A DNA stretch of 64,000 nucleotides from Coleofasciculus chthonoplastes F2-STO-03 (lineage in GTDB: Bacteria; Cyanobacteriota; Cyanobacteriia; Cyanobacteriales; Coleofasciculaceae), in NCBI GenBank assembly GCA_040222015.1, contig JAVJWO010000134.1:39035-103034 (forward strand), in the 5' to 3' direction. The notes beneath the pieces were generated by a model that was given only the letters and a program-made list of their open reading frames with translations, was not told where the DNA came from and ran no database searches. Each line of letters opens with the position of its first letter. The first letter of the stretch is position 1. A program made the translations under genes and the position numbers. Positions 27-30,649 of the stretch are shown here, piece after piece.

Positions 27-149
27 GTAGTGCGAGCATCTTGCTCGCTATCCAATCAGCATCTTGCTCGCTATCCAATCAGCATCTTGCTCGCTATCCA
101 ATCAGCATCTTGCTCGCTATCCAATCAGCATCTTGCTCGCTATCCAATC
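27..149 (+). repeat. REP hairpin (GTAGTGCGAGCATCTTGCTCGC, 27-48) followed by five identical 23-bp tandem units AGCATCTTGCTCGCTATCCAATC (35-149)
   Basis: Read directly from sequence; GCGAGC/GCTCGC stem preceded by GTAG. Confidence 0.92.
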
Positions 150-322
150 TGATCAAATTTCCGCAAAAACACGAATGCGAATCGCTGCGCCGATAGGTTA
201 GGCTCGATAAAGACCATCTGGGATGCTCTCTCACTCTACCCTAACCGAGTAGCGGGAGATGCGATCGCGGTTTGGATGGGACACTACCGGATTGTGTGGA
301 TTAGTGCTGAGGCAAAACTGAG

Positions 323-3300
323 ATGATGTTGCCATCTATATTTAACACCTGTAGTCCCAGAGGGGAAATACAAGCCGGGGAGCTTTCGGTAGACTTGTTT
401 GCCGCAAAAGTCCGTCCTGTGGTGGAAGGGAATGCTCCTTTAGTTTATCAAGATGCCAATGTCTTCTTTGCTAATACCTTCCCTACAGATGGGATTAAAA
501 CCCTGATTCGGGAAGTATTTGGGCGCTTAAGTGGTGCCGCAACGGGTTCTCCGGTGATTCGCTTGGAGACGAGCTTTGGCGGTGGTAAAACCCACGATGA
601 GATTGCGATTTGGCATATCTGTAAGCAAGGGCGGCGGATTGACGGATTAGACCGTTTTGCTGACTTGACATTAATCCCAGACTATGCAGTGCAGGTGGCG
701 GCGATTGATGGTAGAGACTTAGACCCAGAAAATGGGGTACATCATGGGAGTACGGGGATTACCACGTTTACCCTTTGGGGAGAAATCGCTTATCAAATCG
801 GCGGAATTGCAGGCTATCAGCTTTTGCGCGGTTCGGATACCAGTGGGATTAGTCCGGGGACATCGGTACTGGAACGGCTGACGGATGGGAAACCCACTGT
901 GATTATTTTGGATGAAATTGCCCGGTATCTGAGAGCGGCGCAAGGGAAAGTCGTGGGACAGAGTACCCTGTCTAAGCAGGTGGTGGCGTTTCTGTTCTCG
1001 TTGATGGATTTGGCGGCGTCGGTTAATCATTTAATTCTGGTCTATTCTCTAGCATCGGCGTCGGATACGTTTAGTGAAGAAACCACAGAACTGAACGAAG
1101 TGATTCGCGCCTCGGCAAGGCAAGAGCGGGTATTGAGTCCGAGTACGGATGTTGAGATTTATAATATCGTCAAGCAACGGTTATTTGAAAGCGTGAGTGC
1201 CAAAGCCTCAGAGGATGCTGCGTCTGAATATTTAAGTGCCTATCGTGCTAGTCGGATTAATTTGCCCGATGGCTGCCAAGATGCTCCCTATGCTAACGCG
1301 ATCGCATCGAGTTATCCGTTTCATCCTGAATTATTTAATTTACTCACTAAGAAGATTGCTTCAATCCCCGAATTTCAGCGCACTAGGGGCGCATTGCGGT
1401 TATTTGCTATGGTGGTGCGTTATCTGTGGCAAAATCCTACGGAATGGATACCGATGATTCATACTCACCATATCCCGGTGGGGGTGGAGGCGAAGGTGAC
1501 GGATGAGTTAACCTCTCGCTTGCAGCGTCCCCTGATGCGGAATCCGATTCAGGCGGATATTTATAATGCTTCTGGGAGAGAAGCTTATGCTCAAGTCCAG
1601 GATCAACAGTGGGTGGTTGCAGGGAAACCCCCATTCTCAACATGGGTAGCGCGGACTATATTTTTACATTCTCTCACCCAAGGGATTTCATCGGGGATTC
1701 GACGGGCGGAGTTAAATTTATCCTTACTGACGCCGGGACTGGAGATTGGGTTTGTAGACCAGGTATTGGATAAACTGACCGCTGTGGCGTGGTATTTAGA
1801 TAACGACCCGATTACCTCAATTGCTCGGTTTAAAGAAGAACCCTCAATTAATAAGATTATCACCGAAGAGAAAGAGCAGGTGGGCAAGATTCAGGCAAAA
1901 GAAGACTTGCGATCGCGCCGAGATAGCATTTTTGCCTCAAAAGCTTTTAAGCTAGTTATACCGGACTCCCCTGCCGATGTGGATGATGTCCCTGATCCGA
2001 TTGCCCTGTGTGTGATTGATTTCGACAATGTGATGGTATCCTCATCCCAAGACCCTGCACCCTATCTGATTGAACAGATTTTTGACAATACAGGAGAGTC
2101 GGGCAAATTCCGCACCTATCGCAATCGCCTCCTATTTTTAGTCGCCAATAAGCACGAACTCGAACGCACTGTTGACCTGGCTAGGGAACATAAGGGGATT
2201 AAGAATATTCTGGCAAGTCCCAATCGGTTAGAAGATATCTCCGAAAGTCAGCAGAAACAACTGCGCCAGAAAGATGGCGAGATTGACTTGAGGTTACGAA
2301 TCGCTATAACCAATACCTACCGCCATCTATTTTATCCGGCGAATGACCCAGTAAAAGCGCCCAAGGGGTTGATACATTACACCTTACCTGCCCAAGATTC
2401 CAGTACGGTAAAAGGGAAGAGTAATCAGCAGGAAGTAATCCTTAAAGCACTCCGGGACTGCGGTAAAGTGAGGGCGGAAGTAGAAGACCAGGCGAAACCC
2501 TTTGCCCCTGCTTATATTTTGCAGAAGGTTTGGCTTTCTGGCATCGACCATTGGACAACGAAAAGCCTACGAGAGGAATTTGCTAAGAATCTGGCGCTAA
2601 ATATGCCCATTGAAGCCGAAATTCCCAGGCTGCGGGAGACGGTAAAACGGGGATTAGTCGAGGGACAGTGGGATATGAAGGTGGGAGAGCGGTTATTTAT
2701 TAAAGCAGATGGAAATTTGACCCCACCCGAACCGATTGAGTTCTCGGAACGGATGGTACTCTATCGCCGAGGAATTTTACAACCCCCGAAACCCAAGGAA
2801 GTCGAACTCAGCGCCCAGGTAATGTCAAGTACGGAAGCGACGAAACCCGTGCGGGTGCGGTGGAAGGCGAGGGGGGCGTTAACGGTGTCTCTGTATCAAG
2901 ATGAAAGGGTGATAAGGGAAGACTTTCGTCCCTCGGATGAGTATGAGGGAAGTATTTCTCAGACGACAGTGTTTAAGATAGTCGCAGATTATGGCAATGG
3001 CGAGGTTGAACAGCGACAGACGCAGGTAATGTTAACCGGGGAGTTTACCTATGGTACAGGGGGTTCGAGGCGGAGTTCCACGGTTAGCGAACCGAAGGGG
3101 ATATTTCAGGTTAAACCCGAACAGATTGACCTAGAGGGTACACCCAATAGCGTATTTACCGCGTTGAGCGATCGCTGTAGTGATGATAAAGTACAGGGAA
3201 TTCAATGGCTAGAACTGTCCGTTGACCAAGTAATGGATTACCGCAAGCTAGGAACAGCGCTACCTTTGCTGAGTCGTTTTCCACTACAAATTGACCAGCG

Positions 3301-3550
3301 CGTGATGATTCAGACGGGGGACTTTACTCGGTTAGAATACCAGGGTTCAGTGCGAGGTTTCCAGAGTTTTTTCTCTACTATCAATACTTTACTTAACGCG
3401 CCCAGTGTGCAAGCAGATGTGAATTTGAAACTCACGTTTGAGTTTGATAACGCAGTGTCGCCAGGGGGTTCAGAAATCAATATAATCAAACAGGCGCTTT
3501 TACGTAATCCCGTAGAACGTCTCTATTTGAGTGCAAGGGTAAGGTATTAA
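323..3550 (+). CDS. DUF499-family AAA+ ATPase of a restriction-like defence system
   Basis: 1075 aa; Walker A TSFGGGKTH, Walker B IILDE, SYPFHPEL and FQRTRGALR motifs typical of DUF499; gene order with methylase and helicase. Confidence 0.88.
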   Translation: MMLPSIFNTCSPRGEIQAGELSVDLFAAKVRPVVEGNAPLVYQDANVFFANTFPTDGIKTLIREVFGRLSGAATGSPVIRLETSFGGGKTHDEIAIWHICKQGRRIDGLDRFADLTLIPDYAVQVAAIDGRDLDPENGVHHGSTGITTFTLWGEIAYQIGGIAGYQLLRGSDTSGISPGTSVLERLTDGKPTVIILDEIARYLRAAQGKVVGQSTLSKQVVAFLFSLMDLAASVNHLILVYSLASASDTFSEETTELNEVIRASARQERVLSPSTDVEIYNIVKQRLFESVSAKASEDAASEYLSAYRASRINLPDGCQDAPYANAIASSYPFHPELFNLLTKKIASIPEFQRTRGALRLFAMVVRYLWQNPTEWIPMIHTHHIPVGVEAKVTDELTSRLQRPLMRNPIQADIYNASGREAYAQVQDQQWVVAGKPPFSTWVARTIFLHSLTQGISSGIRRAELNLSLLTPGLEIGFVDQVLDKLTAVAWYLDNDPITSIARFKEEPSINKIITEEKEQVGKIQAKEDLRSRRDSIFASKAFKLVIPDSPADVDDVPDPIALCVIDFDNVMVSSSQDPAPYLIEQIFDNTGESGKFRTYRNRLLFLVANKHELERTVDLAREHKGIKNILASPNRLEDISESQQKQLRQKDGEIDLRLRIAITNTYRHLFYPANDPVKAPKGLIHYTLPAQDSSTVKGKSNQQEVILKALRDCGKVRAEVEDQAKPFAPAYILQKVWLSGIDHWTTKSLREEFAKNLALNMPIEAEIPRLRETVKRGLVEGQWDMKVGERLFIKADGNLTPPEPIEFSERMVLYRRGILQPPKPKEVELSAQVMSSTEATKPVRVRWKARGALTVSLYQDERVIREDFRPSDEYEGSISQTTVFKIVADYGNGEVEQRQTQVMLTGEFTYGTGGSRRSSTVSEPKGIFQVKPEQIDLEGTPNSVFTALSDRCSDDKVQGIQWLELSVDQVMDYRKLGTALPLLSRFPLQIDQRVMIQTGDFTRLEYQGSVRGFQSFFSTINTLLNAPSVQADVNLKLTFEFDNAVSPGGSEINIIKQALLRNPVERLYLSARVRY

Positions 3551-3978
3551 TGCAAGAATTTCAACTGCGGGTGGTTCCCACGGATAACAATAATTTCGCC
3601 TTGGAGTTGTATCAATGTGCCTATAAAAAGGCGGGGGAAAAAAAGCGACCAGCGGCTAAACGAATTGGGCGGTTGAAGGGTAAGGCGTTGGTGCAGGCGA
3701 GATCGGTGATTTATGAGGTTTTAAAAGCGAATAATTATGACCCGAAAACTCTATCACACAAGCGGCAATCTCCCTATATTTTAAGTGAGGAATCGGGGGT
3801 TAATTTGGCGCTGTTATTTCAAGCTTTGCAACCGCTATCAAAACCGGAACGCATTGCGAATATCAGTGCCGGAGTTACAGCGATGAGTAATGAAGAGGCA
3901 CATTATTGGTTCGCCAAAATTAATAATGGCAAGCGAAGTCCGGCGTTAAAGGCAATGCGAGTGTTATTAGGGGATTAG
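3550..3978 (+). CDS. small protein at the DUF3780 position of the restriction-like system
   Basis: 142 aa, coupled (TAATG) to the ATPase; C-terminal EEAHYWF...ALKAMRVLL resembles DUF3780-type ends; family call is mainly positional. Confidence 0.6.
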   Translation: MQEFQLRVVPTDNNNFALELYQCAYKKAGEKKRPAAKRIGRLKGKALVQARSVIYEVLKANNYDPKTLSHKRQSPYILSEESGVNLALLFQALQPLSKPERIANISAGVTAMSNEEAHYWFAKINNGKRSPALKAMRVLLGD

Positions 3979-4299
3979 GAGTGTGAGCATCCTGCTCACG
4001 TATATGCACAAGAGTCAATCTGCCAATGCCAATCTGCCAATGCCAATCTGCCAATGCCAATCTGCCAATGCCAATCTCCCAATGCCAATCTCCCAATGCC
4101 AATCTCCAACTATCAATCTCCCAATGCCAATCTCCCAATGCCAATCTCCCAATGCCAATCTCCAACTATCAATCTCCCAATGCCAATCTCCAACTATCAA
4201 TCTCCCAATACCAATCTCCCAATGCCAATCTCCCAATACCAATCTCCCAATGCCAATCTCCAACTATCAATTTCCAAGCGAGCAAGATGCTCGCACTAC
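3978..4299. repeat. REPIN-like pair: left REP GGAGTGTGAGCATCCTGCTCAC (3978-3999), heptamer array CAATCTC/CCAATGC/CAACTAT (~4016-4270), right REP GCGAGCAAGATGCTCGCACTAC (4278-4299)
   Basis: Inverted REP copies with a compensatory stem change (GTGAGC/GCTCAC) enclosing a tandem array. Confidence 0.88.
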
Positions 4300-4373
4300 A
4301 GACAGATATAAGCATTTTGTTTATTATAGAAGTTAAAAACTGAAAAATTAGAAAAATTCAAGGAATCTTAGTC

Positions 4374-5036
4374 ATGTTACAATATGATCCGAAATTACGC
4401 CTGCCAACAAGTGCTGAATTGCCTTGTTCTGATGATACGCCTGTGGATAACGAGAATCAAAATTTTATTCCAAACTTACTGTTATTTTTACTAAAGTTTA
4501 TTTGGGGGAAGCGAACAGATTGGTTTTTTGGGGTGGATATGGGAATTTATCACACCACAGGAGTTAGTCCGTTGGTTCCTGTAGTTCCCGATGGCTTTTT
4601 GAGTTTAGGGGTTGAACGTCATCGGCAAGGTAGACAGAGGAAAAGCTATGTAGTTTGGGAAGAAAATGGTGTTGTTCCAATTTTTGTGTTAGAGGTGGCA
4701 TCGCGAACACCGGGGGGAGAATACGATACGAAGATGGGAATTTATGCCAACTTGGGAGTTTTATATTATCTGGTTTATAACCCTGAATATTGGCAGCGAG
4801 ATAGGCATCAATCTTTTGAGGTTTACCGCTTAGTAAATGGAGAGTATCAACTGCAAATTGGTGAACCTTACTGGATGCCAGAAGTTGGCTTAGGGATTGG
4901 ACGTGCGCCTTACCAAGATGGTGAACTAGAGATTGAAGCATTGTATTGGTACAATCAGCAGGGTGTCCGTTATTTAACACCTGAAGAACAATTAGCCCGT
5001 TATCAAGAACGTTTTGGCGAATTACCGGAGGATTAA
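4374..5036 (+). CDS. Uma2 (DUF820) family PD-(D/E)xK endonuclease-fold protein
   Basis: LPCSDDTPVDNE, VVPDGFLSLG, VLEVAS, YDTKMGIY motifs of cyanobacterial Uma2 proteins. Confidence 0.88.
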   Translation: MLQYDPKLRLPTSAELPCSDDTPVDNENQNFIPNLLLFLLKFIWGKRTDWFFGVDMGIYHTTGVSPLVPVVPDGFLSLGVERHRQGRQRKSYVVWEENGVVPIFVLEVASRTPGGEYDTKMGIYANLGVLYYLVYNPEYWQRDRHQSFEVYRLVNGEYQLQIGEPYWMPEVGLGIGRAPYQDGELEIEALYWYNQQGVRYLTPEEQLARYQERFGELPED

Positions 5037-5089
5037 AATTTCTTCAAGTCGCAGATTCATAATTCGTAGTGCGTTCGCGTAGCGTGCGC

Positions 5090-5111
5090 GTAGTGCGAGC
5101 ATCTTGCTCGC
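5090..5111 (+). repeat. REP hairpin immediately upstream of RAYT
   Basis: GTAGTGCGAGCATCTTGCTCGC, 12 bp before the ATG. Confidence 0.9.
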
Positions 5112-5123
5112 GATGGGAGTAAG

Positions 5124-5573
5124 ATGAAATTCAAAAAACAACTTCCTCAATTAGAAATCCCTAAAGGCAGATACTTCGTTACCTTCGTGACGTGGGAAAG
5201 ACTAGAACTAACTCCAGAAGCTCGACAGGTTGTGCTAGATGCTTGCAGTTTTTTTCACAATCAACGATATCAGATATTTACTGGAGTTATCATGCCAGAT
5301 CACGTACATCTGTTGATTCAGCCTTTTCTCAAAACGGAGACAGAATTTTGGTCAATTGGGAGTATTTTGCATAGCATCAAAAGTTATAGCGCCAAACAAA
5401 TTCCTCAAGTGATGCGACATATTGGCAAGGTTTGGCAAGATGGAAGATATGATAAGCTGATGAGGGATGAGAAAGAATTCGAGCAGGCATGGGAGTATAT
5501 TAGACAAAATCCGGTTAAGGCTGGATTATCAAAGACTCCGGAAGATTATCCTTTCTTTTGGGAGATATTTTGA
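5124..5573 (+). CDS. REP-associated tyrosine transposase (RAYT / TnpA-REP, Y1 HUH family)
   Basis: YFVTFVT, HUH motif MPDHVHLL, VWQDGRYD, catalytic-Tyr motif EYIRQNPVKAGL; flanked on both sides by GTAG/GGAG hairpins. Confidence 0.9.
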   Translation: MKFKKQLPQLEIPKGRYFVTFVTWERLELTPEARQVVLDACSFFHNQRYQIFTGVIMPDHVHLLIQPFLKTETEFWSIGSILHSIKSYSAKQIPQVMRHIGKVWQDGRYDKLMRDEKEFEQAWEYIRQNPVKAGLSKTPEDYPFFWEIF

Positions 5574-5574
5574 A

Positions 5575-5993
5575 GGAGTGCGAGCATCTTGCTCGCTACC
5601 TATAATTTAATTAGAGCTCGCTACCTAATAATTAGAGCTCGCTACCTAATAATTAGAGCTCGCTACCTAATAACTAGAGTTCGTGACCTAATAATTAGAG
5701 CTTGCTGCATCTTGTACACTACCGATGATTTACAGCATCTTACTCAGAAGGGAGCATGTCACCTTTGTCGGTTAGACCCTTGGAACGTAGGCGTGACGCG
5801 CAGCGATAGCGACGTAAGGAGCGTCAACCTTCTCGTACTCCTTTGGAGTTCCCGAAGGGTAGAGTAACCCAACGAGAGCAGGCTAACTTGGACATTTTGT
5901 GCCAACCTGATAGGCTCCCTACTCAGAAAGCCAGCGTCCAAACCCTTATCGGTTAACAATCTTAGTCAATAGCGAGCGAGACGCTCGCACTAC
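5575..5993. repeat. REPIN-like pair: left REP 5575-5596, ~4 x 21-bp units GCTCGCTACCTAATAATTAGA (5616-5699), ~200-bp cargo, right REP GCGAGCGAGACGCTCGCACTAC (5972-5993)
   Basis: Read directly from sequence. Confidence 0.85.
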
Positions 5994-6033
5994 CATAAAA
6001 AATATACCCTTTAATTTCTGTACAATTTAACCC

Positions 6034-9000
6034 ATGACTACCCCTAACCGCCCCAAAGTGTTCATTGAAAAAATCATGCCTGTGGAGTTATTAAACAAGC
6101 AGGTATATTACGAGAATGGGGGAAATCCATTCAAGGGTTTACATCGTTGGTATTCGCGCAAACCTTTGTCATTTAGCCGCGCTAGTGTTTTGGCGTCGCT
6201 GTTACCTGCTGATATTTCCATGGATGAGTTTGAATATCTGTTGGGATTAGAGAGACGCCAGTACAGAAGTAAAGAGGTAAGGCTATACAAAACACCGCCA
6301 ACGTCAGAACGGATTCAGCAGGTACATGATTTGTGTGAGAAGGTTTGGGGAAAGCGGACTCCTACTGTGTTGGATGCGTTTGCAGGGGGTGGGAGTATTC
6401 CCTTTGAGGCGGCGCGGTATGGGTTGAATGTGCTGGCGTCGGATTTGAATCCGGTGGCGGTGGTGACGATGAAGGCGGCGATGGAATATCCTCTCAAGTT
6501 TGGTCCCGATTTGCAGCAGGATATTGATAAGTGGGTGAAGTGGGTAGGGGATGAGGCGAAGAAGCGATTGGCTGAGTTTTTTCCGTCTTTGGAAGGGGAA
6601 AGGGTACAGAATTATTTATGGGCGCATACGGTGGTTTGTCCAAGTTGTGAGTCGGTGGTGCCGTTGAGTCCAAATTGGTGGTTGAGTAAGACGAGTAATT
6701 ATGCAGGAAAAGGGAAAGAAAGGAAAGTTACCAGTGATTGGTATGCGGTGAAGCCAATTCCGAATCCTGAGAAGAAGCGGGTTGATTTTGAGTTGATTAA
6801 GGGAAGGAAGGGGAAGGGTAAAACGATTATTTATGAGGATAATTCGGATAATAACGTAGTGGGAGCGTCTCGCTCCCTTACCTCTCCCGGTAGCTCCCTT
6901 ACCTCTCCCGGTAGCTTCCTTACCTCTTCCGACAGCAAACAGGATGAAAGGATTAGCGAGCAAGATTTGGGGAGAGGATGTAGCGAGCAAGATGCTCGCA
7001 CTCCCCATATTAATCGCAAATTGGAATATGATCCAGATACTACAACAACCCTGAGCAGAGGTGTTGGTAAATGTCCCAATTGTGGAAGTGTCATTGAAGA
7101 TGAATCAATTAAAGCCTATTCATCTGTTAATAATTTGGGACATCAAATTTACGCTGTAGCTTATAAAAAGGGGAAATCAAATCTATATTTTCGGCTACCT
7201 GATCAAATTGATTTAGATGGACTTGAAAATGCTCAATTAGCACTTAAACAGAAGTATGCTGATTTGACTGTTGCGAATCTAATTCCTAGTGAACCAACGA
7301 GTACAGGTTTACATGATTCCCCTCGAAATTATGAATATGGTTTGCGACAATACGAAGACTGTTTTAATGCTCGTCAGCTTCTAACCCTTGTCACCTATGT
7401 AGAAATTATCAACGAGGCAAAGTCAAAGCTACAGGCTGAGTATGAGCCAGAGAAAGCAGAGGCGATTAGCACTTATTTAGCTTTGGTTTTAGATAGATGC
7501 ATTGATGCTAATTGTCGATTAGTTATTTATAATGCAGCCAGAGCTTGTATTCAAAAGGCTTCAACACAACACGCATTAAACTTAATGTGGAACTATCCAG
7601 AGGTAAATGGAGCAACAGAACTTTGGCAAGCGTGTCAAGAAGAAGCAGCTAGAGACTACACAAAACTTTGCTCTTTATTCGGAACCAAACCCCACTCAAT
7701 CGGCTTACCTGGAATCGAACACTACGACCCAAAATCCATCCAAATAGAAGCAGCATCAGCCGATAGCCTCTTCCACATCCCCGATAACTCCATAGACGCC
7801 ATTATCACAGATCCTCCCTACTATTCCACAATCCAATACGCCGAACTCTCAGACTTCTTCTACGTCTGGATGAAACGCACCCTCGGCGACATTTTCCCCG
7901 AAATCTTTCTAACCGAACTCACCGACAAAGACAGAGAAGCCGTCGCCAACCCCTCCCGCTTCCGCAACATGGGGATATCCGCCGACGAACTCGCCAACCA
8001 AGACTACGAAGCGAAAATGGCACTCGCCTTTAGCGAATATTACCGTGTCCTGCGAGATGACGGCGTAATGACGGTACAATTCAACCACAAAGACTCCGGC
8101 GCATGGGATGTCCTGGCAAAATCCCTCATCGATGCAGGCTTCGAGATTACCGCATCTTGGGCAGTCAGCACCGAAAACCCCCAAAACCTGCACCAAGCCA
8201 AGAAAAACTCCGTCTCCAGTACCGTCCTTTTAGTCTGCCGCAAACGTGACCCCAACGCCGAACAAGCTTGGTGGGATGACTTGCGCCCCGAAGTCGCTAA
8301 CCTCGTAGAACAACGCGCCCCCGAATTTGAAGCCAACGACATCACCGGAATTGACCTCTATTTAAGCGCCTTTGGTCCAGCCTTAAACGTCTTTTCCCGT
8401 TCTCACCCCATCCTCGACAGCAGCGGCGAAGAAGTGCGCCCAGAACAAGCCTTTGCTGAAGCCAGAAAAGCCATCGCCAACTACCGCTTCCGCAAACTCG
8501 TCCAAACCGACACCGCCGGGTTTGACCCCCTCACCCAATGGTATCTCCTAGCTTGGGATGCATTCAAAGCGCGAGAATTCCCCTTCGATGAAGCCCGACA
8601 ACTCGCACTTGCCATCGGTGGCTTCAATGTCACCGACTTAGCCAAAACCCACAAATTACTAGACTCTACCAGTGGCACTTGTAAACTATTATCCCCCCAA
8701 CAGCGCCTGAAAAAACGCGCTTTTTCCGTCAACGAACAAGAATTTTCCGCCCTTTATTTAGTAGACGGACTCCACGCCATCCTCGCTATCTACCAAGAAG
8801 AACAAAGTATCCAACTGGTGCGCCGCTTCATGAAAAATACCGGACTGGTGAGTAATGATATGTTTATGAAAACCATGGAAGTAGCCTTTAAAGTGATTCC
8901 CGATAGCGTTTCAGAACACAAAGCCTTGTTAGACTTGTGGTTAGCGATGGATGAAATTAAGGCAAAAGTGGTGGTGGAACAGATGGAACTGCCGTTAGAG

Positions 9001-9048
9001 GTTGGGCAATTGAGCTTAGATTTAGACAACAGTAGTAATTCCCAATAA
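6034..9048 (+). CDS. DUF1156-type amino-DNA methyltransferase with Zn-ribbon and in-frame REPIN insertion
   Basis: LHRWYSRKPL N-terminus, SAM motif LDAFAGGGSIP, catalytic ITDPPYY, CPSC/CPNC pairs. Confidence 0.9.
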   Translation: MTTPNRPKVFIEKIMPVELLNKQVYYENGGNPFKGLHRWYSRKPLSFSRASVLASLLPADISMDEFEYLLGLERRQYRSKEVRLYKTPPTSERIQQVHDLCEKVWGKRTPTVLDAFAGGGSIPFEAARYGLNVLASDLNPVAVVTMKAAMEYPLKFGPDLQQDIDKWVKWVGDEAKKRLAEFFPSLEGERVQNYLWAHTVVCPSCESVVPLSPNWWLSKTSNYAGKGKERKVTSDWYAVKPIPNPEKKRVDFELIKGRKGKGKTIIYEDNSDNNVVGASRSLTSPGSSLTSPGSFLTSSDSKQDERISEQDLGRGCSEQDARTPHINRKLEYDPDTTTTLSRGVGKCPNCGSVIEDESIKAYSSVNNLGHQIYAVAYKKGKSNLYFRLPDQIDLDGLENAQLALKQKYADLTVANLIPSEPTSTGLHDSPRNYEYGLRQYEDCFNARQLLTLVTYVEIINEAKSKLQAEYEPEKAEAISTYLALVLDRCIDANCRLVIYNAARACIQKASTQHALNLMWNYPEVNGATELWQACQEEAARDYTKLCSLFGTKPHSIGLPGIEHYDPKSIQIEAASADSLFHIPDNSIDAIITDPPYYSTIQYAELSDFFYVWMKRTLGDIFPEIFLTELTDKDREAVANPSRFRNMGISADELANQDYEAKMALAFSEYYRVLRDDGVMTVQFNHKDSGAWDVLAKSLIDAGFEITASWAVSTENPQNLHQAKKNSVSSTVLLVCRKRDPNAEQAWWDDLRPEVANLVEQRAPEFEANDITGIDLYLSAFGPALNVFSRSHPILDSSGEEVRPEQAFAEARKAIANYRFRKLVQTDTAGFDPLTQWYLLAWDAFKAREFPFDEARQLALAIGGFNVTDLAKTHKLLDSTSGTCKLLSPQQRLKKRAFSVNEQEFSALYLVDGLHAILAIYQEEQSIQLVRRFMKNTGLVSNDMFMKTMEVAFKVIPDSVSEHKALLDLWLAMDEIKAKVVVEQMELPLEVGQLSLDLDNSSNSQ
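6856..7004. repeat. in-frame REPIN inside methylase (left REP GTAGTGGGAGCGTCTCGCTCCC 6856-6877; ~3 x 21-bp GCTCCCTTACCTCTCCCGGTA; right REP 6983-7004)
   Basis: Encodes VVGASRSLTSPGSSLTSPGSFLTSS...CSEQDARTP; ORF stays open. Confidence 0.88.
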
Positions 9049-9397
9049 TTTATGAAATTCATTTGTAGTGCGAGCATCTTGCTCGCTACAAACCCTGCCG
9101 TTATAGGTTATTCATTTGTAGTGCGAGCATCTGGCTCGCTACAAACCCACATCAATACAGCCCACACCCTGAGCTTAGATTTAGACAACAGTAGTAATTT
9201 CCAATAATTTATGAAATTCATTTGTAGTGCGAGCATCTGGCTCGCTACAAACCCACATCTAATCCTCGATCCAAAAACCCTCCAATCAACCGAAGAACAA
9301 CGTATAATTATTGGTGTCATAACCTGGCAATAATATGTCAACTTCGCCGATATATTTGTCGATTTAATATAAGTAGCGACCAAGATGGTCGCACTAC
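9011..9397. repeat. REP cluster: three left REPs (9065, 9118, 9224), one right REP GCGACCAAGATGGTCGCACTAC (9376-9397), and an ~85-bp duplication of the methylase 3' end (9011-9095 / 9170-9254)
   Basis: Read directly from sequence. Confidence 0.88.
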
Positions 9398-9401
9398 AAA
9401 A

Positions 9402-12400
9402 ATGCAAAACTTACGCAATAAATCCTGGCGCATCAGTTACTCCAGCAACGAAAATAACCCTATTGCTGACTTCTACATCCCCGCCTTAGAATGCGCCGTT
9501 CAATACGATCGCAAATCCGGCTTCTTCAACAGTGCCATATTAAGCAAAGTCGCCCGTGGTTTAGGGGCAATGCTGCACAACGAGGGAAAAATACGGCTGA
9601 TTATGGGCTGTCAGTTTAGCCCCCAAGACTTGCAAGCCATCCAACAAGGTTACGAACTACGGGAAGCTTTACTCACTCGCCTGGATACCGAACTCAACCC
9701 TCCAGAAAACTTCGTCCAACTCAAACATTTTGAGATTCTCAGTTGGCTAGTTGCTAACGGCTACCTGGATATTAAAATTGCTGTCCCCCTCAAAAATAAC
9801 GGCATACCGGAAGAAAGCCAAACCCAACTTGACCCGTATCACATTTTCCATGAAAAAGTTGGTATTTTTATCGATTCTCAAGGCAACCAATTAGCCTTCA
9901 GCGGTTCTAATAACGAATCCCTCAGCGGTTGGGAACGCAATGTCGAATCCTTCCACGTTTACTCTAGCTGGGAAGGTGGGAGAGATTTAGAACGAGTTAA
10001 TGAGGAACTGTTCCGTTTTGAACAACTCTGGAATAATTTAGCCCCCAACGTCCGAATCTTTGAAGTCCCAGAAGCAGTTCGGCAAAAGCTGTTGCGCTAC
10101 ACCCCAGCCACTAAACCCACTTGGAGTAAACAAGCAGAATTCGACAGGAGAACCCTACCGAAAAATGGGGGAGGTGTAGAAAGTCGATCGCCTGAAGGAG
10201 TGCGAGCGTCTCGCTCGCTATATCTTAATAATGGTTCCTTAGACCCTAATAATAGTTCCTTAGACCCTAATAATAGTTCGCTAAACTTGAGAGAGCGCGG
10301 GCAAGATAATGATCGACAAAATAGCAATCACAGCAAAAATAGCGATCGCGGGCAAGATGCCCGCACTACAAATCCCGAACTAACACCTGACCCTGAAACT
10401 AACGGGCAAGATGCCCGCACGACAAATCCCGAACTAACACCTGACCCTGAAACTAACGGGCAAGATGCCCACACGACAAATCCCGAACTAACACCTGACC
10501 CTGAAACTAACGGGCAAGATGCCCACACGACAAATCCCGAACTAACACCTGACCCTGAAACTAACGGGCAAGATGCCCGCACTACAAATCCCAAACTAAC
10601 ACCTGACCCTGAAACTAACGGGCAAGATGCCCACACGACAAATCCCGAACTAACACCTGACGCTGAAACTAACGGGCAAGATGCCCGCACGACAAATCCC
10701 GAACTAACACCTGACGCTGAAACTAACGGGCAAGATGCCCACACGACAAATCCCGAACTAACACCTGACCCTGAAACTAACGGGCAAGATGCCCACACTC
10801 CTGAAGAAATTGAACGAGAACGCCAAGCTTTTTCCCAACTCGCCAACCTGCACAAACACCCCGGCTGCTTGGACTTTTGCCTCAAATCTATTCCGATTAC
10901 CCCCTGGCCACACCAAATAAAAATACTCCGTCAAGTTGCCCAGCAGTTCCCCCGCAGTTTCCTCATTGCTGATGAAGTTGGACTGGGAAAGACAATTGAA
11001 ACAGGTTTAATTCTGCGTTACTTGCTAGTCAGCCAAAAAGTGAAGCGCGTCTTAATCCTCGCCCCTGCCAGTGTGCAACCCCAGTGGCAGGAAGAACTGC
11101 GAGAAAAGTTTAACCTTCACTTCTGGAGTTACGCACAAGGGGGATTAACTGACCCCTATGGAAGCAGTGTATTCCCAAGCAAAAACGAAGGTAGTGGGAG
11201 CATCTTGCTCCCTGGAACTACAAGCGGGGAAATTACACCCAACCGGGAGACTATTCCCAACCGGGAAACTATACCTAGCGGGCAAGATGCCCGCACTACC
11301 AACCCCTGGAATACCAAAGATTTAGTTCTCGCCTCTAGTCATTTGGTGCGCCGTACTGAAAGAATGCAGGAACTTTTAGAGGCTGAAGTTTGGGATTTAG
11401 TGGTGTTAGATGAAGCCCACCATGCACGGCGCAAAAGCCCTCAAGCGCGTAAGGATACCCCAAATCGGCTGCTGGAGTTAATGGGGCAACTCAAAGAAAA
11501 GACACGCGCTTTAGTGCTGCTATCTGCTACCCCAATGCAGATTGACCCAATTGAAGTCTTTGACTTACTCTCCCTCGTAGGGCTTCAGGGGTATTGGTCT
11601 TATGGCGATAACTTCTGTAGTTATTTTTCGACTTTACCAGAACCACCAGACCGCTTCATCCTGGAATTCTGGCAGCAGATGTCGGTAGATTATTTTAAAC
11701 GTGGCGGTAAGTCCTGTTCTCGTTTACAGCAGTACTTGGAGAAACTGGATCGTTTCATCACTTACAAACTGCAAAATGTCTGGAAAGATGGGCAAAAAAT
11801 AGTAAATCCCAGACAATATCTAGCTGACGAACCCTTTATCGCCACATCTAGACAGTACCTCACCGTCAATACTCCCCTCAAAGATTTAATGTTCCGCCAC
11901 ACCCGCGATACTCTACGGCAATACTATCGCTTGGGTTTGCTAGACCGAGATATTCCCCAGCGGGATGTGCGAGACAACGCCATTTCCCTAGAACCGAACC
12001 GGGAAGTCCCCCTCTATCGCGCCGTCAGCGAGTACGTGCGAAACTTCTATCGCCTTGCCCAAAAGCAGGAACGTAAGGCGTTAGGCTTTTTGATGACGCT
12101 GTACCGCAAGCGATTAACTAGCTCATTTTATGCCATTCGCGAATCCTTGCAACGCCGCTTAGATTCTCTGCAGGAAGGGGCGGGTAGTAGTGTTACCAGC
12201 GATGATTTGAGTGATATTGACGAGGCAGATGATGCCGTAATTACTGGTTTGGAATCATTTTTAGAACCCGTAGACCCCAGAGAAATTGAATATCTCGAAG
12301 ACTTGCTGCGTCAGTTTGAAAATACGGGGGAAGATAGCAAATTATCTCATTTAATTGACACTCTGCGCCGGGAATTGATTGAGCGAGAAAGTGCAATTAT

Positions 12401-13262
12401 TTTCACTCAGTATACCGACACGATGGACTATCTGCGGGAGTCACTGCGGCAGCTTTATGGAAGTCAGGTGGCCTGTTACTCCGGACGTGGGGGAGAGTTG
12501 TACCGGGGAAACGACTGGTGCATTTTGCCCAAAGAACTCATCAAACGCCAGTTCCGAGAAGGTGAGATTAAAATTTTACTGTGTACGGAATCGGCATCTG
12601 AGGGCTTGAATCTGCAAACTTGTGGGGTGTTAATCAATTATGATCTGCCCTGGAACCCGATGCGAGTTGAGCAAAGAATTGGACGTTTAGACCGAATTGG
12701 ACAGATTTATCCCACAGTTAAGATTCACAACTTCTATTATGATGGCACAGTAGAGGCGAAGGTATATCGAAAATTGCGCGATCGCATCAATGCTTTTGCT
12801 ACAGTTGTCGGCAACCTGCAACCGATTCTAGCTCAAGTTCCCACGTTTATCGAGCAAGCTGTGATGAGTGCTGATCCCGAAGAAGAAGATGTGTTGATGT
12901 CAGAATTTGAGCAGGTACTCAACACCCCACCCCTGCGTCCGGCTTTAGAAGAAATGATCGCTATGGATGTTGAGGCTGACTTACACGACATCCGCCAACC
13001 CATCCCCCCAACACCTGTTACACCAGAAACCATTGAACAGTTATTCACCACTTCAGCCCGTCTCAAGTCCGATGGTGTCGAGTTTGAACCCTTACGCGAT
13101 CGCATCTGGCAGCTTACCTATCAAGGGCAGCAGTACAATGTTACTTTTTATCCCGAAGTCTTCGATGAAATGCCTTCCCTGCGGCTGATGAGCTTTGGGG
13201 AGCCATTATTTGAACAGTTGCTCAACACCGCTGTAACTGTGACTTGTGCGATCGCGCCTTAA
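9402..13262 (+). CDS. PLD-like nuclease / SNF2 helicase of the restriction-like system, with two in-frame REPIN insertions
   Basis: N-terminal FHEKVGIF...FSGSNNES (HKD-like), ADEVGLGKT, LDEAHH, SATP, SEGLNLQ, EQRIGRLDRIGQ. Confidence 0.9.
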   Translation: MQNLRNKSWRISYSSNENNPIADFYIPALECAVQYDRKSGFFNSAILSKVARGLGAMLHNEGKIRLIMGCQFSPQDLQAIQQGYELREALLTRLDTELNPPENFVQLKHFEILSWLVANGYLDIKIAVPLKNNGIPEESQTQLDPYHIFHEKVGIFIDSQGNQLAFSGSNNESLSGWERNVESFHVYSSWEGGRDLERVNEELFRFEQLWNNLAPNVRIFEVPEAVRQKLLRYTPATKPTWSKQAEFDRRTLPKNGGGVESRSPEGVRASRSLYLNNGSLDPNNSSLDPNNSSLNLRERGQDNDRQNSNHSKNSDRGQDARTTNPELTPDPETNGQDARTTNPELTPDPETNGQDAHTTNPELTPDPETNGQDAHTTNPELTPDPETNGQDARTTNPKLTPDPETNGQDAHTTNPELTPDAETNGQDARTTNPELTPDAETNGQDAHTTNPELTPDPETNGQDAHTPEEIERERQAFSQLANLHKHPGCLDFCLKSIPITPWPHQIKILRQVAQQFPRSFLIADEVGLGKTIETGLILRYLLVSQKVKRVLILAPASVQPQWQEELREKFNLHFWSYAQGGLTDPYGSSVFPSKNEGSGSILLPGTTSGEITPNRETIPNRETIPSGQDARTTNPWNTKDLVLASSHLVRRTERMQELLEAEVWDLVVLDEAHHARRKSPQARKDTPNRLLELMGQLKEKTRALVLLSATPMQIDPIEVFDLLSLVGLQGYWSYGDNFCSYFSTLPEPPDRFILEFWQQMSVDYFKRGGKSCSRLQQYLEKLDRFITYKLQNVWKDGQKIVNPRQYLADEPFIATSRQYLTVNTPLKDLMFRHTRDTLRQYYRLGLLDRDIPQRDVRDNAISLEPNREVPLYRAVSEYVRNFYRLAQKQERKALGFLMTLYRKRLTSSFYAIRESLQRRLDSLQEGAGSSVTSDDLSDIDEADDAVITGLESFLEPVDPREIEYLEDLLRQFENTGEDSKLSHLIDTLRRELIERESAIIFTQYTDTMDYLRESLRQLYGSQVACYSGRGGELYRGNDWCILPKELIKRQFREGEIKILLCTESASEGLNLQTCGVLINYDLPWNPMRVEQRIGRLDRIGQIYPTVKIHNFYYDGTVEAKVYRKLRDRINAFATVVGNLQPILAQVPTFIEQAVMSADPEEEDVLMSEFEQVLNTPPLRPALEEMIAMDVEADLHDIRQPIPPTPVTPETIEQLFTTSARLKSDGVEFEPLRDRIWQLTYQGQQYNVTFYPEVFDEMPSLRLMSFGEPLFEQLLNTAVTVTCAIAP
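10197..10801. repeat. in-frame REPIN plus 54-bp tandem array in the helicase linker (left REP 10197-10218; 21-bp units; right REP 10348-10369; 8 x 54-bp units 10349-10780 plus partial ninth)
   Basis: Encodes (GQDA[R/H]TTNPELTPDPETN)x8; each unit begins with a REP hairpin CGGGCAAGATGCCC. Confidence 0.92.
11191..11299. repeat. second in-frame REPIN in helicase (left REP GTAGTGGGAGCATCTTGCTCCC; 2 x 18-bp CCCAACCGGGARACTATW; right REP 11278-11299)
   Basis: Encodes GSGSILLPGTTSGEITPNRETIPNRETIPSGQDARTT between Walker A and DEAH motifs. Confidence 0.88.
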
Positions 13263-13299: not shown

Positions 13300-14325
13300 T
13301 TACAAATGAGGGAATAACTTCAAAAAAGATTGCCGATAAAAATTTAAAACTCGTTGAGTATAAGCCGCCGTTGAACCCTGATTATATTGCTGGGGATCAC
13401 CCGTCATCCACCAAGCCGCAGCCCGCTGTACCGCCACTGTCTCATTATTACCACTCGCCTCATACTGTTTATTAAGCACATCTCCCATCACGCAAACTAA
13501 AATAGTACGGGCAGTCACCGGACTCGCGGCAAAATCGGCGGGTGTTAGTTCCTCTCCAATACATTGATTGGACCAACGGGGAATATTTTCTGGTTTAATT
13601 TGCCAATCACTGTAAAGTCCATCATTTTCTATTCCCGTTTGCGGTGCTGCCCGTCGTAGTGCTTCCACTAAAGCGGCGACTTTTGTATCAGAAATCGCGT
13701 TATTGGTTGAGGAACGGGCGGCAGCTTGAGGCTGAGAGGCGGCTGACGATTGACTTTCCGTCGGTTGAGAGGATGATGCTGGTTTTGCCGCCGAGGGAGT
13801 CGTGGTGGGTTGAGCGGGAGTTGCAGATTGTTGCGTCTGGGGATTACGGCGTTGCTGTTGGTAATTTTTCAGCACATTCTGAATGTAAGTGTAGGTGTAA
13901 GAGTTTTCAGGAATGCTATTATATTGACTCCCATCCCCAGTCATCCACCAAGCCGCTGCCCGTTGTATTGCCACCGACTCATTATTATTACTGGCACGAA
14001 ACTGCTCATTCAATACATCCCGCATCACGCACACCAAGATAGTCCGCGCCGTTACCGGACTGGCTTCAAAATCAGCAGGTGACAGTTCTCGTCCAATACA
14101 TTGCTTTGACCATCGGGGAATGTTACCCGGTTTAATTTGCCAGTCACTATAGAGTCCATCATCTGCCCTTCCCGTTTGCGGTGCGGCTAGTCGCAAAGCT
14201 TCCACCAGCGCTGAAACTTGAGCATCAGAGACTTGAGCGTATACCGGGGAACTCCAGAGTCCCAGAGAAAGTAACGCGGTACTCAGTAGGACTCGTTGAA
14301 CTGGTTTAATGAATTTGAAACCCAT
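13300..14325 (-). CDS. exported protein with two copies of a ~125-aa domain joined by a Q/S/P-rich linker
   Basis: Signal-peptide-like N-terminus (..SPVYA); duplicated ALVEALR.AAPQTG..DGLYSDWQIKP.NIPRWS.QCIG..AAAWWMTGD. Confidence 0.8.
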   Translation of the reverse strand: MGFKFIKPVQRVLLSTALLSLGLWSSPVYAQVSDAQVSALVEALRLAAPQTGRADDGLYSDWQIKPGNIPRWSKQCIGRELSPADFEASPVTARTILVCVMRDVLNEQFRASNNNESVAIQRAAAWWMTGDGSQYNSIPENSYTYTYIQNVLKNYQQQRRNPQTQQSATPAQPTTTPSAAKPASSSQPTESQSSAASQPQAAARSSTNNAISDTKVAALVEALRRAAPQTGIENDGLYSDWQIKPENIPRWSNQCIGEELTPADFAASPVTARTILVCVMGDVLNKQYEASGNNETVAVQRAAAWWMTGDPQQYNQGSTAAYTQRVLNFYRQSFLKLFPHL

Positions 14326-19978: not shown

Positions 19979-20140
19979 AGTCGATAGAATCGCCGATTGG
20001 CAACCACGATGCCTCGTTTCTTGATTCTATCTCTCAGCCGTGAGGGGGATATGCAGTTTACCTTAGTCGGTGAACAGGAATCCAGCCATCATCTTTGACG
20101 CCAGTATGTGATGCATCGTCAGTAAGCGTAATAGCGGTTT

Positions 20141-20168
20141 GTAGAGACGTTGCATGCAACGTCTCTAC
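20141..20168. repeat. perfect 28-bp palindrome GTAGAGACGTTGCATGCAACGTCTCTAC (identical copy 30175-30202; variants near 17455, 21783, 39690, 44702)
   Basis: Read directly from sequence. Confidence 0.9.
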
Positions 20169-20741
20169 TTAAAGTCCCATCACATCTTCATACAACGCTT
20201 CAATAGGACAGTGAAAATCAACACTAGCCAAGTGAACTTCTTCCCCTTGACTATAGGGATGGAGAACCCAAAGTCCTTCAGAATTACGCCGAAAATACTC
20301 TACACTAATCCGTTCTTGATTAATTAGTACGTAGTCTTCTAAACTGTCTAAGGTTCTATAGTCAGCAAATTTATCTCCTCTATCAAAAGCGGCGGTTTTA
20401 GGAGATAGGACTTCAACGACTAAACAAGGATAGCGAATAAAGTCTTCGTCAGAGGAAGAATTATCCCGTTCATCACAAGTTACCGTGACATCGGGATAGT
20501 AATAAATACTAGCCGCTTCAATCTGGACTTTCATATCTGCCATGTAAGGGATACAACCTCTCCCCCGCAGATGGCTTCTTAGCATCGCAAATAGGTTGCC
20601 TGCAATAGTCACATGGGCTTTACTAGCACCTGCCATGGCATAAACTTCCCCACGAATATATTCATGCTTGATTGGGGACACTCTCTCTCCTTCTAAATAG
20701 TCTTCTGGAGAGATATAGGCGTAATTTGGACTCACTGTCAT
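20169..20741 (-). CDS. Uma2 (DUF820) family endonuclease-fold protein
   Basis: KHEYIRGEVYAMAGAS, YYYPDVTVTCD, VEVLSPKT..DRGDKF. Confidence 0.9.
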   Translation of the reverse strand: MTVSPNYAYISPEDYLEGERVSPIKHEYIRGEVYAMAGASKAHVTIAGNLFAMLRSHLRGRGCIPYMADMKVQIEAASIYYYPDVTVTCDERDNSSSDEDFIRYPCLVVEVLSPKTAAFDRGDKFADYRTLDSLEDYVLINQERISVEYFRRNSEGLWVLHPYSQGEEVHLASVDFHCPIEALYEDVMGL

Positions 20742-22916: not shown

Positions 22917-23122
22917 AATTCTTACCTGGGATATTCTGAATCGTGATGGATGATCAGTTAATGGTTGGGTTAGGGCGGGTTTAGTTACGTTATCGGTTTT
23001 GTCCACAACGTTATTGGTGAAACCCGCCCCTACAACCCGGCTTACCCTAGATGGGCGGGTTTAGTTAAGTTATCGGTTTTGTCCACAACGTTATCGGTAA
23101 AACCCGCCCCTACAGAACGGAT

Positions 23123-26430: not shown

Positions 26431-26618
26431 GTAAGTAGATAAAAAAGAATGAACCCAAAAATAAATATATTTTTCAGAACAAAAAATATATTTATTTTTA
26501 TTTTTAAACCCAAATATTGCTTTTATTTTCCTTTTATCAATCTTTAATATAACTTTATCAAAAAATGATGACACTTCATATTATAATTGCCAGAATAGCT
26601 ATTAGTGGTACCTGCGAA

Positions 26619-26721
26619 TAAGCGGTTCGGCATTTAAACCATAATGTCAAGAATTGCAAAATCCTTGTAGTGCGAGCATCTTGCTCGCTACCCATTCCCA
26701 ATTTAAATGCGTGACAGCTTA
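26619..26721 (+). mobile_element. MITE (TAAGCGGTTCGGCATTTAAA...TTTAAATGCGTGACAGCTTA) carrying a REP at 26667-26688
   Basis: Imperfect TIR; homologous copy at 30036-30163. Confidence 0.75.
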
Positions 26722-30038: not shown

Positions 30039-30163
30039 GCTGTTCGGCATTTAAACCTTAATGTCAATAATGACGAAATCCTTGTAGTGCGTTAAGCGAA
30101 GCCATGCCGCAGGCTTTGCATCTTGCTCGCTACTAATACCCAATTTAAATGCATGACAGCTTA
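30036..30163 (+). mobile_element. second copy of REP-carrying MITE; REP interrupted by a 26-bp insert TTAAGCGAAGCCATGCCGCAGGCTTT
   Basis: Alignment by eye with 26619-26721; supplies the GH9 stop codon. Confidence 0.75.
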
Positions 30164-30649
30164 GAGAAGGGAAAGTAGAGACGTTGCATGCAACGTCTCT
30201 ACATAAATGATGTGTCCTAACAGCTATGGCAGTTGCTATATCTTGCTTGCCAATTTAGTTTGATTAGAACTAATTAGTAGGGGAATTCTACCGCACCGAG
30301 TCTTTAAAATCAATAGCTGCGTTTCTCAGGAGACGCGGCTTTTTCCCTTGTTTCGTTCTTGTGCCAGATGGAAAATTGATCAGACAGAAGTAGTCGAACT
30401 TTCATTAAAGTTGACAGTTGAGATGAGGAAACAGGCAACAGGCAACAGTAAGGATTTGAGGCTTGTTAACATTTCTGAGGATATATTTTCAAATAGACTG
30501 AACTATTCGCCAGGGCAAGGTGCAAATTTTGATTAATGCATCTGGTTACCCATTGTATCTGTGCAATTGGGTAGATATTTTATGGCATAATTAGGGATTA
30601 TTATACTGTTGTCTATAGAAAATTAAGCAAATAGACCCCACAACTGTCC

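What the first reader, a model, noticed from the sequence alone, without database searches (positions are those of the whole stretch)
27..11299. Tandem repeats are anchored on REP arms and have codon-multiple lengths inside genes
Seen: most arrays start in or include a REP arm. These are 23 bp x5 (35-149, intergenic), 21 bp starting GCTCGCTA/GCTCCCTT (5616, 6872, ~10213), partial right-arm duplications at 27-bp (6956/6983) and 51-bp (10297/10348) spacing, 54 bp x8 (10349) and a 159-bp-offset duplication (9011/9170). The 18 bp x2 (~11238) and heptamer (4016-4270) arrays lie between REP pairs. All coding units (18, 21, 27, 51, 54) are multiples of 3; intergenic ones include 7 and 23. Inference: nicking or hairpin stalling at REPs generates local duplications that are then filtered for reading frame, giving a REP-seeded repeat-expansion mechanism.
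Basis: partly seen in the sequence, partly recalled or inferred. Interest (0 to 1): 0.8.

Follow-up and report, generated by a model that had tools for sequence, protein, structure and literature searches.

The report
One-sided repeat seeding at transposase hairpins
In this cyanobacterium and its relatives, small DNA hairpins that flank a tyrosine-transposase gene carry duplications of about 20 bases on one side only, which vary in copy number between species and likely mark where the transposase nicks one strand in living cells.

Summary
The repeats are real and sit around a RAYT transposase gene (5124-5573) and its 24-nt GTAG-type REP hairpin, in a cyanobacterial defence locus. Duplications begin inside the hairpin and run 3', away from the GTAG foot: 23 of 110 copies versus 0 on the other side. 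A second REP family gives 26 of 238 versus 0; 61 related genomes give 188 versus 5 matches. Units are 15-27 nt, mostly without microhomology, and one orthologous array holds 1-20 units across five species. Both strands fold equally, and REP orientation is unrelated to neighbours or transcription, so plain hairpin stalling is unlikely. A strand-specific RAYT nick followed by faulty repair synthesis is my best reading (about 0.55, untested). Limits: three other REP families show no such polarity; two genomes with arrays lack a detectable RAYT orthologue; only 22 of 1,925 genome-wide arrays touch this REP; heptamer arrays are not REP-linked; codon-multiple lengths are ordinary selection.

The parts
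27..50 (+). REP family A copy (GTAG foot + 7-bp stem, 3-nt loop)
35..149 (+). 23-bp x5 array; unit starts at REP position 8 and runs 9 nt past the stem; intergenic
323..3550 (+). DUF499 ATPase (best PADLOC model HmaC); context gene
3978..4299 (.). Inverted REP pair (3978-4001 +, degenerate; 4276-4299 -) enclosing a heptamer array (4016-4270) that holds no REP sequence
5090..5113 (+). REP directly upstream of the RAYT start
5124..5573 (+). RAYT / TnpA-REP Y1 transposase, 149 aa, DHVH-WQ-YIRQNP motifs, intact, dN/dS 0.08-0.11
5575..5706 (+). REP (5575-5598) with 21-bp right-arm array; intergenic; 1-20 units at the orthologous site in five species
5970..5993 (-). REP closing the pair downstream of RAYT
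6034..9048 (+). DUF1156 adenine methylase (best PADLOC model HmaB) with a 60-aa in-frame REP-pair insertion absent from two orthologues
6856..7004 (.). In-gene inverted REP pair (6856-6879 +, 6981-7004 -); each REP has its own inward duplication (21-bp x2.9 at 6872; 27-bp partial at 6956/6983)
9011..9397 (.). Whole-REP tandem block: REPs at 9065, 9118, 9224 (+), 9374 (-); 85-nt duplication at 159-nt offset
9402..13262 (+). PLD-SNF2 helicase with two REP-derived in-frame insertions
10197..10369 (.). In-gene inverted REP pair (10197-10220 +, 10346-10369 -) with decayed 21-bp array (10213-10283) and 51-bp partial arm copy (10297)
10349..10798 (-). 54-bp x8.3 array = whole REP plus 30-nt 3' flank, encoding an 18-aa repeat; single decayed copy in two orthologues
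11191..11299 (.). In-gene inverted REP pair enclosing 18-bp x2.6 (11227-11272); part of a 39-aa insertion absent from close orthologues

Best explanation
GTAG-type REP hairpins in these cyanobacteria carry roughly 20-nt tandem duplications that start inside the hairpin and run 3' away from the GTAG foot, and these likely arise when the REP's own RAYT transposase nicks the GTAG-bearing strand and host repair synthesis rejoins it out of register. Shown: the REP family, its intact RAYT, the one-sided duplications, their narrow length, their lack of long microhomology, and copy-number differences between species. Inferred step 1: RAYT binds only the folded GTAG strand and cuts it, which would set the direction. 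Inferred step 2: a host polymerase extends the free 3' end past the hairpin, and about two helical turns are written twice before the strand is sealed; whether the nick lies at the foot, in the hairpin or just 3' of it is unresolved. Inferred step 3: the first direct repeat then grows and shrinks by ordinary slippage or unequal exchange. Step 4 (established principle, pattern shown): inside genes only in-frame units in tolerant linkers survive.
For: Polarity: family A 23 of 110 versus 0; family C 26 of 238 versus 0; E 8 versus 1; D 4 versus 0; I 2 versus 0. Relatives: 188 3' matches in 12 of 61 genomes versus 5 mirror matches, 2 of them true left-arm copies. Family C outside this genome: 27 matches in 7 of 140 genomes from four families versus 10 mirror matches, all whole or decayed whole-REP tandems. 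Both strands fold alike. Neighbouring REPs are co-oriented 154 versus 172 times and array-bearing REPs show no transcription bias; opposite-strand REPs 125 nt apart both duplicate inward (6856/6981). Among 22 events scored as local, 13 had no microhomology. Unit length 15-27, SD 2.7 versus 4.8 if the two breakpoints were independent. RAYT passes the NF047646 cut-off (108.6 versus 80 bits) and is under purifying selection. TnpA-REP binds and cuts REP but not iREP and leaves a 3'-OH (PMC8266576 passages); a nick-and-extend amplification model was proposed for BIMEs (PMC3333891 passages).
Against: Families B (8 versus 12 of 500), G (1 versus 6 of 220) and F (0 versus 1 of 74) show no 3' bias; F and G flank RAYT genes too, and several B events with one decayed end run the other way. 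No close RAYT orthologue was found in G004 or G006, which have 18 and 17 arrays (drafts of 620 and 1,440 contigs). Breakpoints share no dinucleotide, unlike the C|T cut of studied TnpA-REP. 36 of 63 events were scored as having a spacer that does not match the local flank, although the walker misscored some. By the same test the rate near RAYT (4 of 15) is not above the rest of the genome (19 of 95). Many counts in relatives are one junction spread by a MITE. No activity data.
Confidence: 0.55

Rival explanations
1. Nested self-insertion: a mobile single REP with a short 3' tail inserts into the left arm of a resident REP, leaving a 5' stub and a duplicated right part, which then expands by slippage. 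RAYT would still be the likely mover, but the seed is an insertion, not local repair.
For: A 3-4 nt stub just 5' of GTAG goes with arrays: 11 of 23 with stub versus 14 of 87 without, p = 0.004. Some spacers differ from the local flank. REPs of one family sit inside REPs of another, and an unrelated 26-nt element sits at position 8 of this REP, the commonest left breakpoint.
Against: Many units carry exactly the local 3' flank (22 of 63 scored local; MITE flank in several), and 14 of 25 array-bearing copies have no stub. The stub test was defined after seeing the data, and the foreign element is probably one event copied by the MITE.
Confidence: 0.2
2. RAYT-independent host process: hairpin-induced slippage or flap mis-ligation by a host polymerase, made one-sided by local sequence or by a host protein that reads the GTAG hairpin.
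For: This genome makes tandem repeats freely (1,925 arrays). Other, non-GTAG hairpins also carry duplications (18 and 15 of 337). Arrays occur in two genomes without a detected RAYT orthologue. E. coli REPs are reported to interact with DNA polymerase I (PMC2817692 passage). No cut-site consensus.
Against: Equal folding on both strands and random orientation predict two-sided events; the same side is used by families A, C, D, E and I, which share the GTAG foot but differ in stem and flank sequence.
Confidence: 0.17
3. The duplications are debris of processing long REP-pair (REPIN) or MITE hairpins, whose inner side is the 3' side of each REP.
For: In the window nearly all duplications lie inside inverted REP pairs, and many dispersed copies lie in a MITE with terminal inverted repeats. 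Family C pairs carry arrays more often (7 of 22) than unpaired copies (19 of 216).
Against: 20 of 23 family A, 19 of 26 family C and 8 of 8 family E array-bearing copies have no inverted partner within 500 nt.
Confidence: 0.06
4. Assembly artefact.
For: Several arrays end at contig ends, so copy numbers are uncertain; no reads of this strain were found.
Against: The same junction sits at the orthologous site in independently assembled species with different copy numbers; contigs from two soil metagenome runs of one study cover 5521-5660; units carry ordered internal mutations.
Confidence: 0.02

Closest known systems
REP/BIME-2 arrays and TnpA-REP (RAYT) of E. coli (Ton-Hoang et al., PMC3333891; Nunvar et al., PMC2817692; passages read)
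   Same: GTAG-footed hairpins beside a single Y1 transposase; tandem copies that vary in number between strains; a proposed nick, extend and rejoin route to amplification. The 54-bp array and the 9065-9224 block are of this whole-REP type.
   Different: BIME units hold whole REP pairs of tens to hundreds of nt. Here the typical unit is half a hairpin plus a few nt of 3' flank, about 20 nt, on one side of single REPs, with no C|T breakpoint consensus.
REPINs and tandem REP/REPIN clusters of Pseudomonas fluorescens SBW25 (Bertels and Rainey, PMC3116915; passages read)
   Same: Inverted REP pairs, clusters next to RAYT genes, tandem arrays including flanking DNA, and an unexplained 'second mechanism' for cluster formation.
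   Different: Only 12 of 110 family A copies are in inverted pairs within 500 nt; partial-arm polar arrays do not appear in the passages read.
GTAG REP families incl. cyanobacterial and intragenic REPs (Di Nocera et al., PMC3733652; passages read); TnpA-Y1 subclass 2.7 (Quentin et al., PMC6006769; passages read)
   Same: [quoted passage not shown] The DHVH, WQ and YIRQNP motifs match the subclass 2.7 table entry.
   Different: One-sided partial duplication and its length rule do not appear in the passages read. Subclass assignment rests on motifs only, and this protein is shorter (149 aa) than the subclass median of 213.
Small dispersed repeats (SDRs) of cyanobacteria (Elhai et al. 2008, PMC2527708; not readable here; described second-hand in PMC2884548, rest recalled)
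   Same: [quoted passage not shown] I recall that nested copies and copies inside genes and larger mobile elements were reported.
   Different: Cannot be judged without the paper. It may already describe the nested or partial copies, which would lower novelty; it predates the RAYT papers read here.

Membership tests
RAYT (TnpA-REP) | Y1 HUH transposase scoring in the RAYT family rather than IS200 | tested here: met
   NF047646 108.6 bits, cut-off 80; IS200 model 25 bits, cut-off 55
RAYT (TnpA-REP) | Single copy, intact, conserved like a housekeeping gene | tested here: met
   Next best copies in the genome at 24-39% identity; 89-92% identical, no stops, dN/dS 0.08-0.11 in five relatives
RAYT (TnpA-REP) | Flanked by its own REP family | tested here: met
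   15 of 110 copies lie in window 27-11299; F, E, G and H families flank other RAYT genes
RAYT (TnpA-REP) | Strand-specific binding, cleavage and strand transfer on the REP | not testable with these tools
   Needs biochemistry
GTAG-type REP | 5' GTAG followed by a short stable hairpin | tested here: met
   7-bp stem, -8.2 kcal/mol, z = -4.8
GTAG-type REP | High copy number, dispersed, mostly extragenic | tested here: met
   151 hits at up to 4 mismatches on 79 contigs; 8 of 110 inside ORFs
REPIN | Most REPs occur as inverted doublets at a characteristic spacing | tested here: not met
   12 of 110 in inverted pairs within 500 nt; pairs dominate only near RAYT
BIME-2-type array | Tandem unit contains whole REPs | tested here: not met
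   Met by the 54-bp and 9065-9224 blocks, but the dominant 15-27 nt unit holds only part of one hairpin
BIME-2-type array | Copy number varies at one locus between relatives | tested here: met
   1, 2, 5, 9 and 20 motif copies at the site after the RAYT stop
TnpA-REP C|T strand-transfer product | Both breakpoints at one dinucleotide | tested here: not met
   Left breakpoints at many dinucleotides; 13 of 22 local events without microhomology
SDR families of Elhai et al. 2008 | Sequence identity to a published SDR consensus | not testable with these tools
   Paper not held
Cyanobacterial heptamer repeats (STRR; name recalled) | Heptamer arrays spread through intergenic DNA regardless of REPs | tested here: met
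   625 arrays of period 7 or 14; not enriched near REPs. Applies to 4016-4270 only

The most novel reading that the evidence does not exclude
The one-sided 20-nt duplication is the in vivo scar of RAYT activity: a strand-specific nickase that turns REP hairpins into seeds of minisatellites across filamentous cyanobacteria, supplies variable in-frame linkers to proteins such as these defence enzymes, and gives the first countable genomic read-out of where and how recently each RAYT has cut.
Probability: 0.4. Interest if true: 0.72.

Novelty: new variant of a known kind. Interest (0 to 1): 0.52.

Why it matters
[quoted passage not shown] A frequent, directional, easily scored product at 10-20% of REP copies gives a direct assay: count new 3' duplications with and without the transposase. 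It also offers a route to a hard step in repeat biology, the birth of a first minisatellite unit without pre-existing direct repeats, and shows such units entering protein linkers in frame. The codon-multiple pattern and the heptamer arrays are ordinary.

Tried and rejected
Heptamer arrays as REP products: rejected, not enriched near REPs. Codon-aware seeding: rejected, 26 of 66 junction types are multiples of 3. Replication or transcription bias as the source of polarity: not supported (fork direction itself is unknown in this draft). Unequal hairpin stability: rejected. C|T cut-and-rejoin at both ends: not supported. Extra duplications in the 3' flank without REP sequence: 11 versus 4 over five families, p = 0.12, and four of the six family A cases are in this window; the larger excess is confounded by later array copies. 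Short 3-11 nt duplications at the two ends: no clear reading, because the family A 3' tail holds a 3-nt repeat by consensus. Higher seeding near the RAYT gene: not seen (4 of 15 versus 19 of 95). Unit length scaling with hairpin length across families: not clear. RAYT presence versus array rate: suggestive only. With a close orthologue: G000 16/103, G001 51/109, G002 39/141, G005 9/101, G007 28/119; none found: G003 2/75, G008 0/30, G013 1/35, G015 1/35, G039 0/14, G055 0/23, but also G004 18/55 and G006 17/109 (numerators and denominators come from slightly different patterns; kin are not independent). Reads of this strain: none found; best runs held 26% of words and are contigs. Literature: searches found no paper on one-sided partial-REP arrays; one search found no paper holding the REP core motif. 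Elhai 2008 was not available, and no supplements were read.
Full report
Setting. The window lies on contig C134 of a 7.7-Mb, 219-contig draft with 6,037 copies of the octamer GCGATCGC, which I recall as the cyanobacterial HIP1 signature. The first 13 kb hold a DUF499 ATPase, DUF7680, a Uma2 nuclease, a Y1 transposase, a DUF1156 methylase and a PLD-SNF2 helicase. The best defence models are HmaC, HmaB and PLD_Helicase; the NCBIfam anti-phage models are hit below their cut-offs. The transposase at 5124-5573 passes the RAYT cut-off, is single-copy and is under purifying selection (dN/dS 0.08-0.11 against five relatives).

The REP. The element is GTAG, one base, a 7-bp stem and a 3-nt loop. It has 151 hits at up to four mismatches on 79 contigs; a stricter pattern gives 110 copies (family A), 15 of them in window 27-11299. 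The genome has 23 matches to the RAYT model, 7 over the cut-off, and at least eight other GTAG families, several flanking their own RAYT gene. Many dispersed family A copies ride inside a 103- or 128-bp element with terminal inverted repeats: 93 full elements, 79 with the REP core.

Observation check. The generalisation is too wide. Of 1,925 TRF arrays (score 50 or more), 22 overlap family A and 176 overlap any REP family. The link is specific to periods 15-30: 18 of 327 non-coding arrays overlap family A against 1.7 expected from genome-wide placement (10.9 if re-placed within the same intergenic block, a null that contains the REP by construction). Heptamer arrays are if anything depleted near REPs.

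The real pattern is polarity. I scored head-to-tail duplications of 12-40 nt with at least 10 exact bases that start inside the REP, on each side in mirror fashion. Family A: 23 of 110 run 3', none 5'. Family C: 26 of 238 versus 0. E: 8 versus 1 of 163. D: 4 versus 0 of 142. I: 2 versus 0 of 23. Random non-coding, non-low-complexity sites: 28 and 43 of 4,000. Non-GTAG hairpins: 18 and 15 of 337, mostly one other repeated element with arbitrary orientation. Against the pattern: B 8 versus 12 of 500, G 1 versus 6 of 220, F 0 versus 1 of 74. B is often a perfect palindrome with GTAG on both strands, but several B events with one decayed end do run the other way. Family H was left out of this test because its pattern covers one arm only.

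Relatives. In 61 genomes the REP-anchored 3' pattern gives 188 matches in 12 genomes, a few REPs counted twice; the mirror gives 5, of which 2 are true left-arm copies. Unanchored unit counts in the nine same-genus genomes are 588 versus 7. For family C, 140 genomes across the phylum give 27 matches in 7 genomes of four families; the mirror gives 10 matches in 2 genomes, 8 whole-REP tandems and 2 decayed whole copies. One junction type recurs at many loci and was probably spread by the MITE, so raw counts overstate independent events. I read 66 distinct family A junction types by hand, collapsing that type and its variants, leaving out secondary duplications within arrays and the matches that were not listed.

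Anatomy of the seed. Left breakpoints lie at REP positions 1-18 (mostly 6-11), right breakpoints 0-18 nt past the stem. They move together (rho 0.74), so units stay at 15-27 nt, median 21, SD 2.7 against 4.8 under permutation; no permutation of 20,000 was as tight (positions are uncertain by one or two bases where microhomology exists). Of 63 events in five families, 22 were scored as copying the local flank, 36 as not, 5 at contig ends; the walker misscored some decayed arrays. Of the 22, 13 have no microhomology and 6 have 1-2 nt. No shared dinucleotide marks the breakpoints.

What sets the side. Both strands fold equally. Adjacent REPs 2-40 kb apart are on the same strand 154 times and opposite 172 times; array-bearing copies are split between sense, antisense and convergent contexts and between signs of local GC skew. 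In the window, REPs at 6856 (+) and 6981 (-) both duplicate inward, and G138, whose matches all lie on one contig of over 5 Mb, has opposite-strand cases under 0.5 kb apart. The side is therefore tied to the GTAG foot and not to fork or transcription. The known reader of that foot is RAYT: TnpA-REP binds and cuts the REP strand but not its complement, at C|T 5' or 3' of the hairpin, leaving a 3'-OH (PMC8266576, passages). A nick-extend-rejoin model for BIME amplification is in PMC3333891 (passages) and a rolling-circle one in PMC2817692 (passages). My inference is a smaller, error-type version of this: nick on the GTAG strand, 5'-to-3' repair synthesis across the hairpin, rejoining about 20 nt out of register. 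The lack of a cut-site consensus means the ends must be trimmed or realigned, or that RAYT only holds the hairpin.

Expansion and frame. The array after the RAYT stop has 5 motif copies here and 1, 2, 9 and 20 in four congeners; a second array before the start has 2, 4, 5 and 8 (counts include the REP's own arm). The helicase linker is 250 aa here, 188 aa in a congener with different REP-derived units, 82 aa with one decayed REP pair in two other genera and 44-54 aa in three more. The methylase insertion (60 aa against two orthologues) and the second helicase insertion (39 aa against its closest orthologues) are recent in-frame gains. One orthologue expanded that second site with non-REP repeats, so these are tolerant sites. 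Genome-wide, 222 of 253 arrays deep in crudely called ORFs have periods divisible by 3 against 428 of 1,135 non-coding ones. The filter is ordinary selection.

Against RAYT as cause. Besides families B, F and G: no close orthologue was found in G004 and G006, which have many arrays, though both are fragmented and recent loss is possible. Seeding near the gene is not above the genome rate. A stub 5' of GTAG accompanies arrays more than chance, which fits nested self-insertion for a subset.

Artefact check. No run from this strain was found. Contigs of two soil runs from one study cover 5521-5660 with one mismatch and four gap bases, and also show an allele joining 5036 to 6034 without the RAYT block. 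Cross-species conservation of junctions rules out a pure artefact; exact copy numbers remain unverified, and arrays at contig ends are truncated.

Known versus new. Tandem whole-REP arrays, strain-variable copy number and intragenic REPs are known (PMC3333891, PMC3116915, PMC3733652; passages). Cyanobacterial small dispersed repeats were described as about 20 bp and tandemly repeated (second-hand, PMC2884548 passage); the original paper could not be read and may cover nested or partial copies. Seven searches found no description of GTAG-anchored, one-sided partial duplications with a length rule. An unchecked note of this scan reports one-sided half-copy arrays behind an unrelated hairpin in gut bacteria. 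Verdict: real, a new variant of REP/RAYT-associated amplification; seeding and polarity about 0.9, RAYT nicking as the cause about 0.55; interest 0.52.

Noticed in passing
window 323-13262; L021, L022, L024, L025: The RAYT sits inside an Hma-like DUF499/DUF1156/PLD-helicase defence locus here and in G016. In four congeners the RAYT is kept next to the gene found at window 13300-14325 while the helicase was not found; in three of them a 48-nt piece of the helicase gene follows the 3' end of the REP array directly, suggesting a deletion that began at the REP's 3' side.
   Followed up: partly
window about 26618-26720 and 30035-30163; genome-wide: A 103-bp element with terminal inverted repeats carries the REP; 93 full copies. 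A 128-bp form (31 copies of that length) mostly has a 26-nt element inserted at REP position 8; 46 of 47 genome copies of that insert are in this context and one is in a HIP1-like site.
   Followed up: partly
window 5037-6033: Soil metagenome contigs join 5036 to 6034, an allele lacking the RAYT and its REPs, so the block is gained or lost as a unit.
   Followed up: no
G000 contigs C69, C130, C178, C213: Family E REPs sit inside the left arm of family H REPs, a sign that single REPs move and target other REPs.
   Followed up: no
window 22973-23114, 34902-34981, 39591-39670, 52521-52600; 20140-20173, 30174-30207: Other REP families in the window: long-loop family H elements and palindromic family B elements.
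   Followed up: partly
window 54164-54291 and many 7-bp arrays from 15447 to 62848: Nine-base G-rich array and heptamer arrays unrelated to REPs, typical of this genome (625 heptamer-type and 180 nine-base arrays).
   Followed up: partly
L029 (G036), L030 (G034), L026 (G059): More distant RAYT homologues (59-69% identity) are flanked by related but different hairpins, one with a long whole-REP tandem array, consistent with RAYT-REP co-divergence.
   Followed up: no
window 13381-13680 and 13918-14217; 27159-28592; 43407-44702: Internal gene repeats: a two-domain duplication in the 341-aa ORF at 13300-14325 and longer imperfect repeats further on.
   Followed up: no
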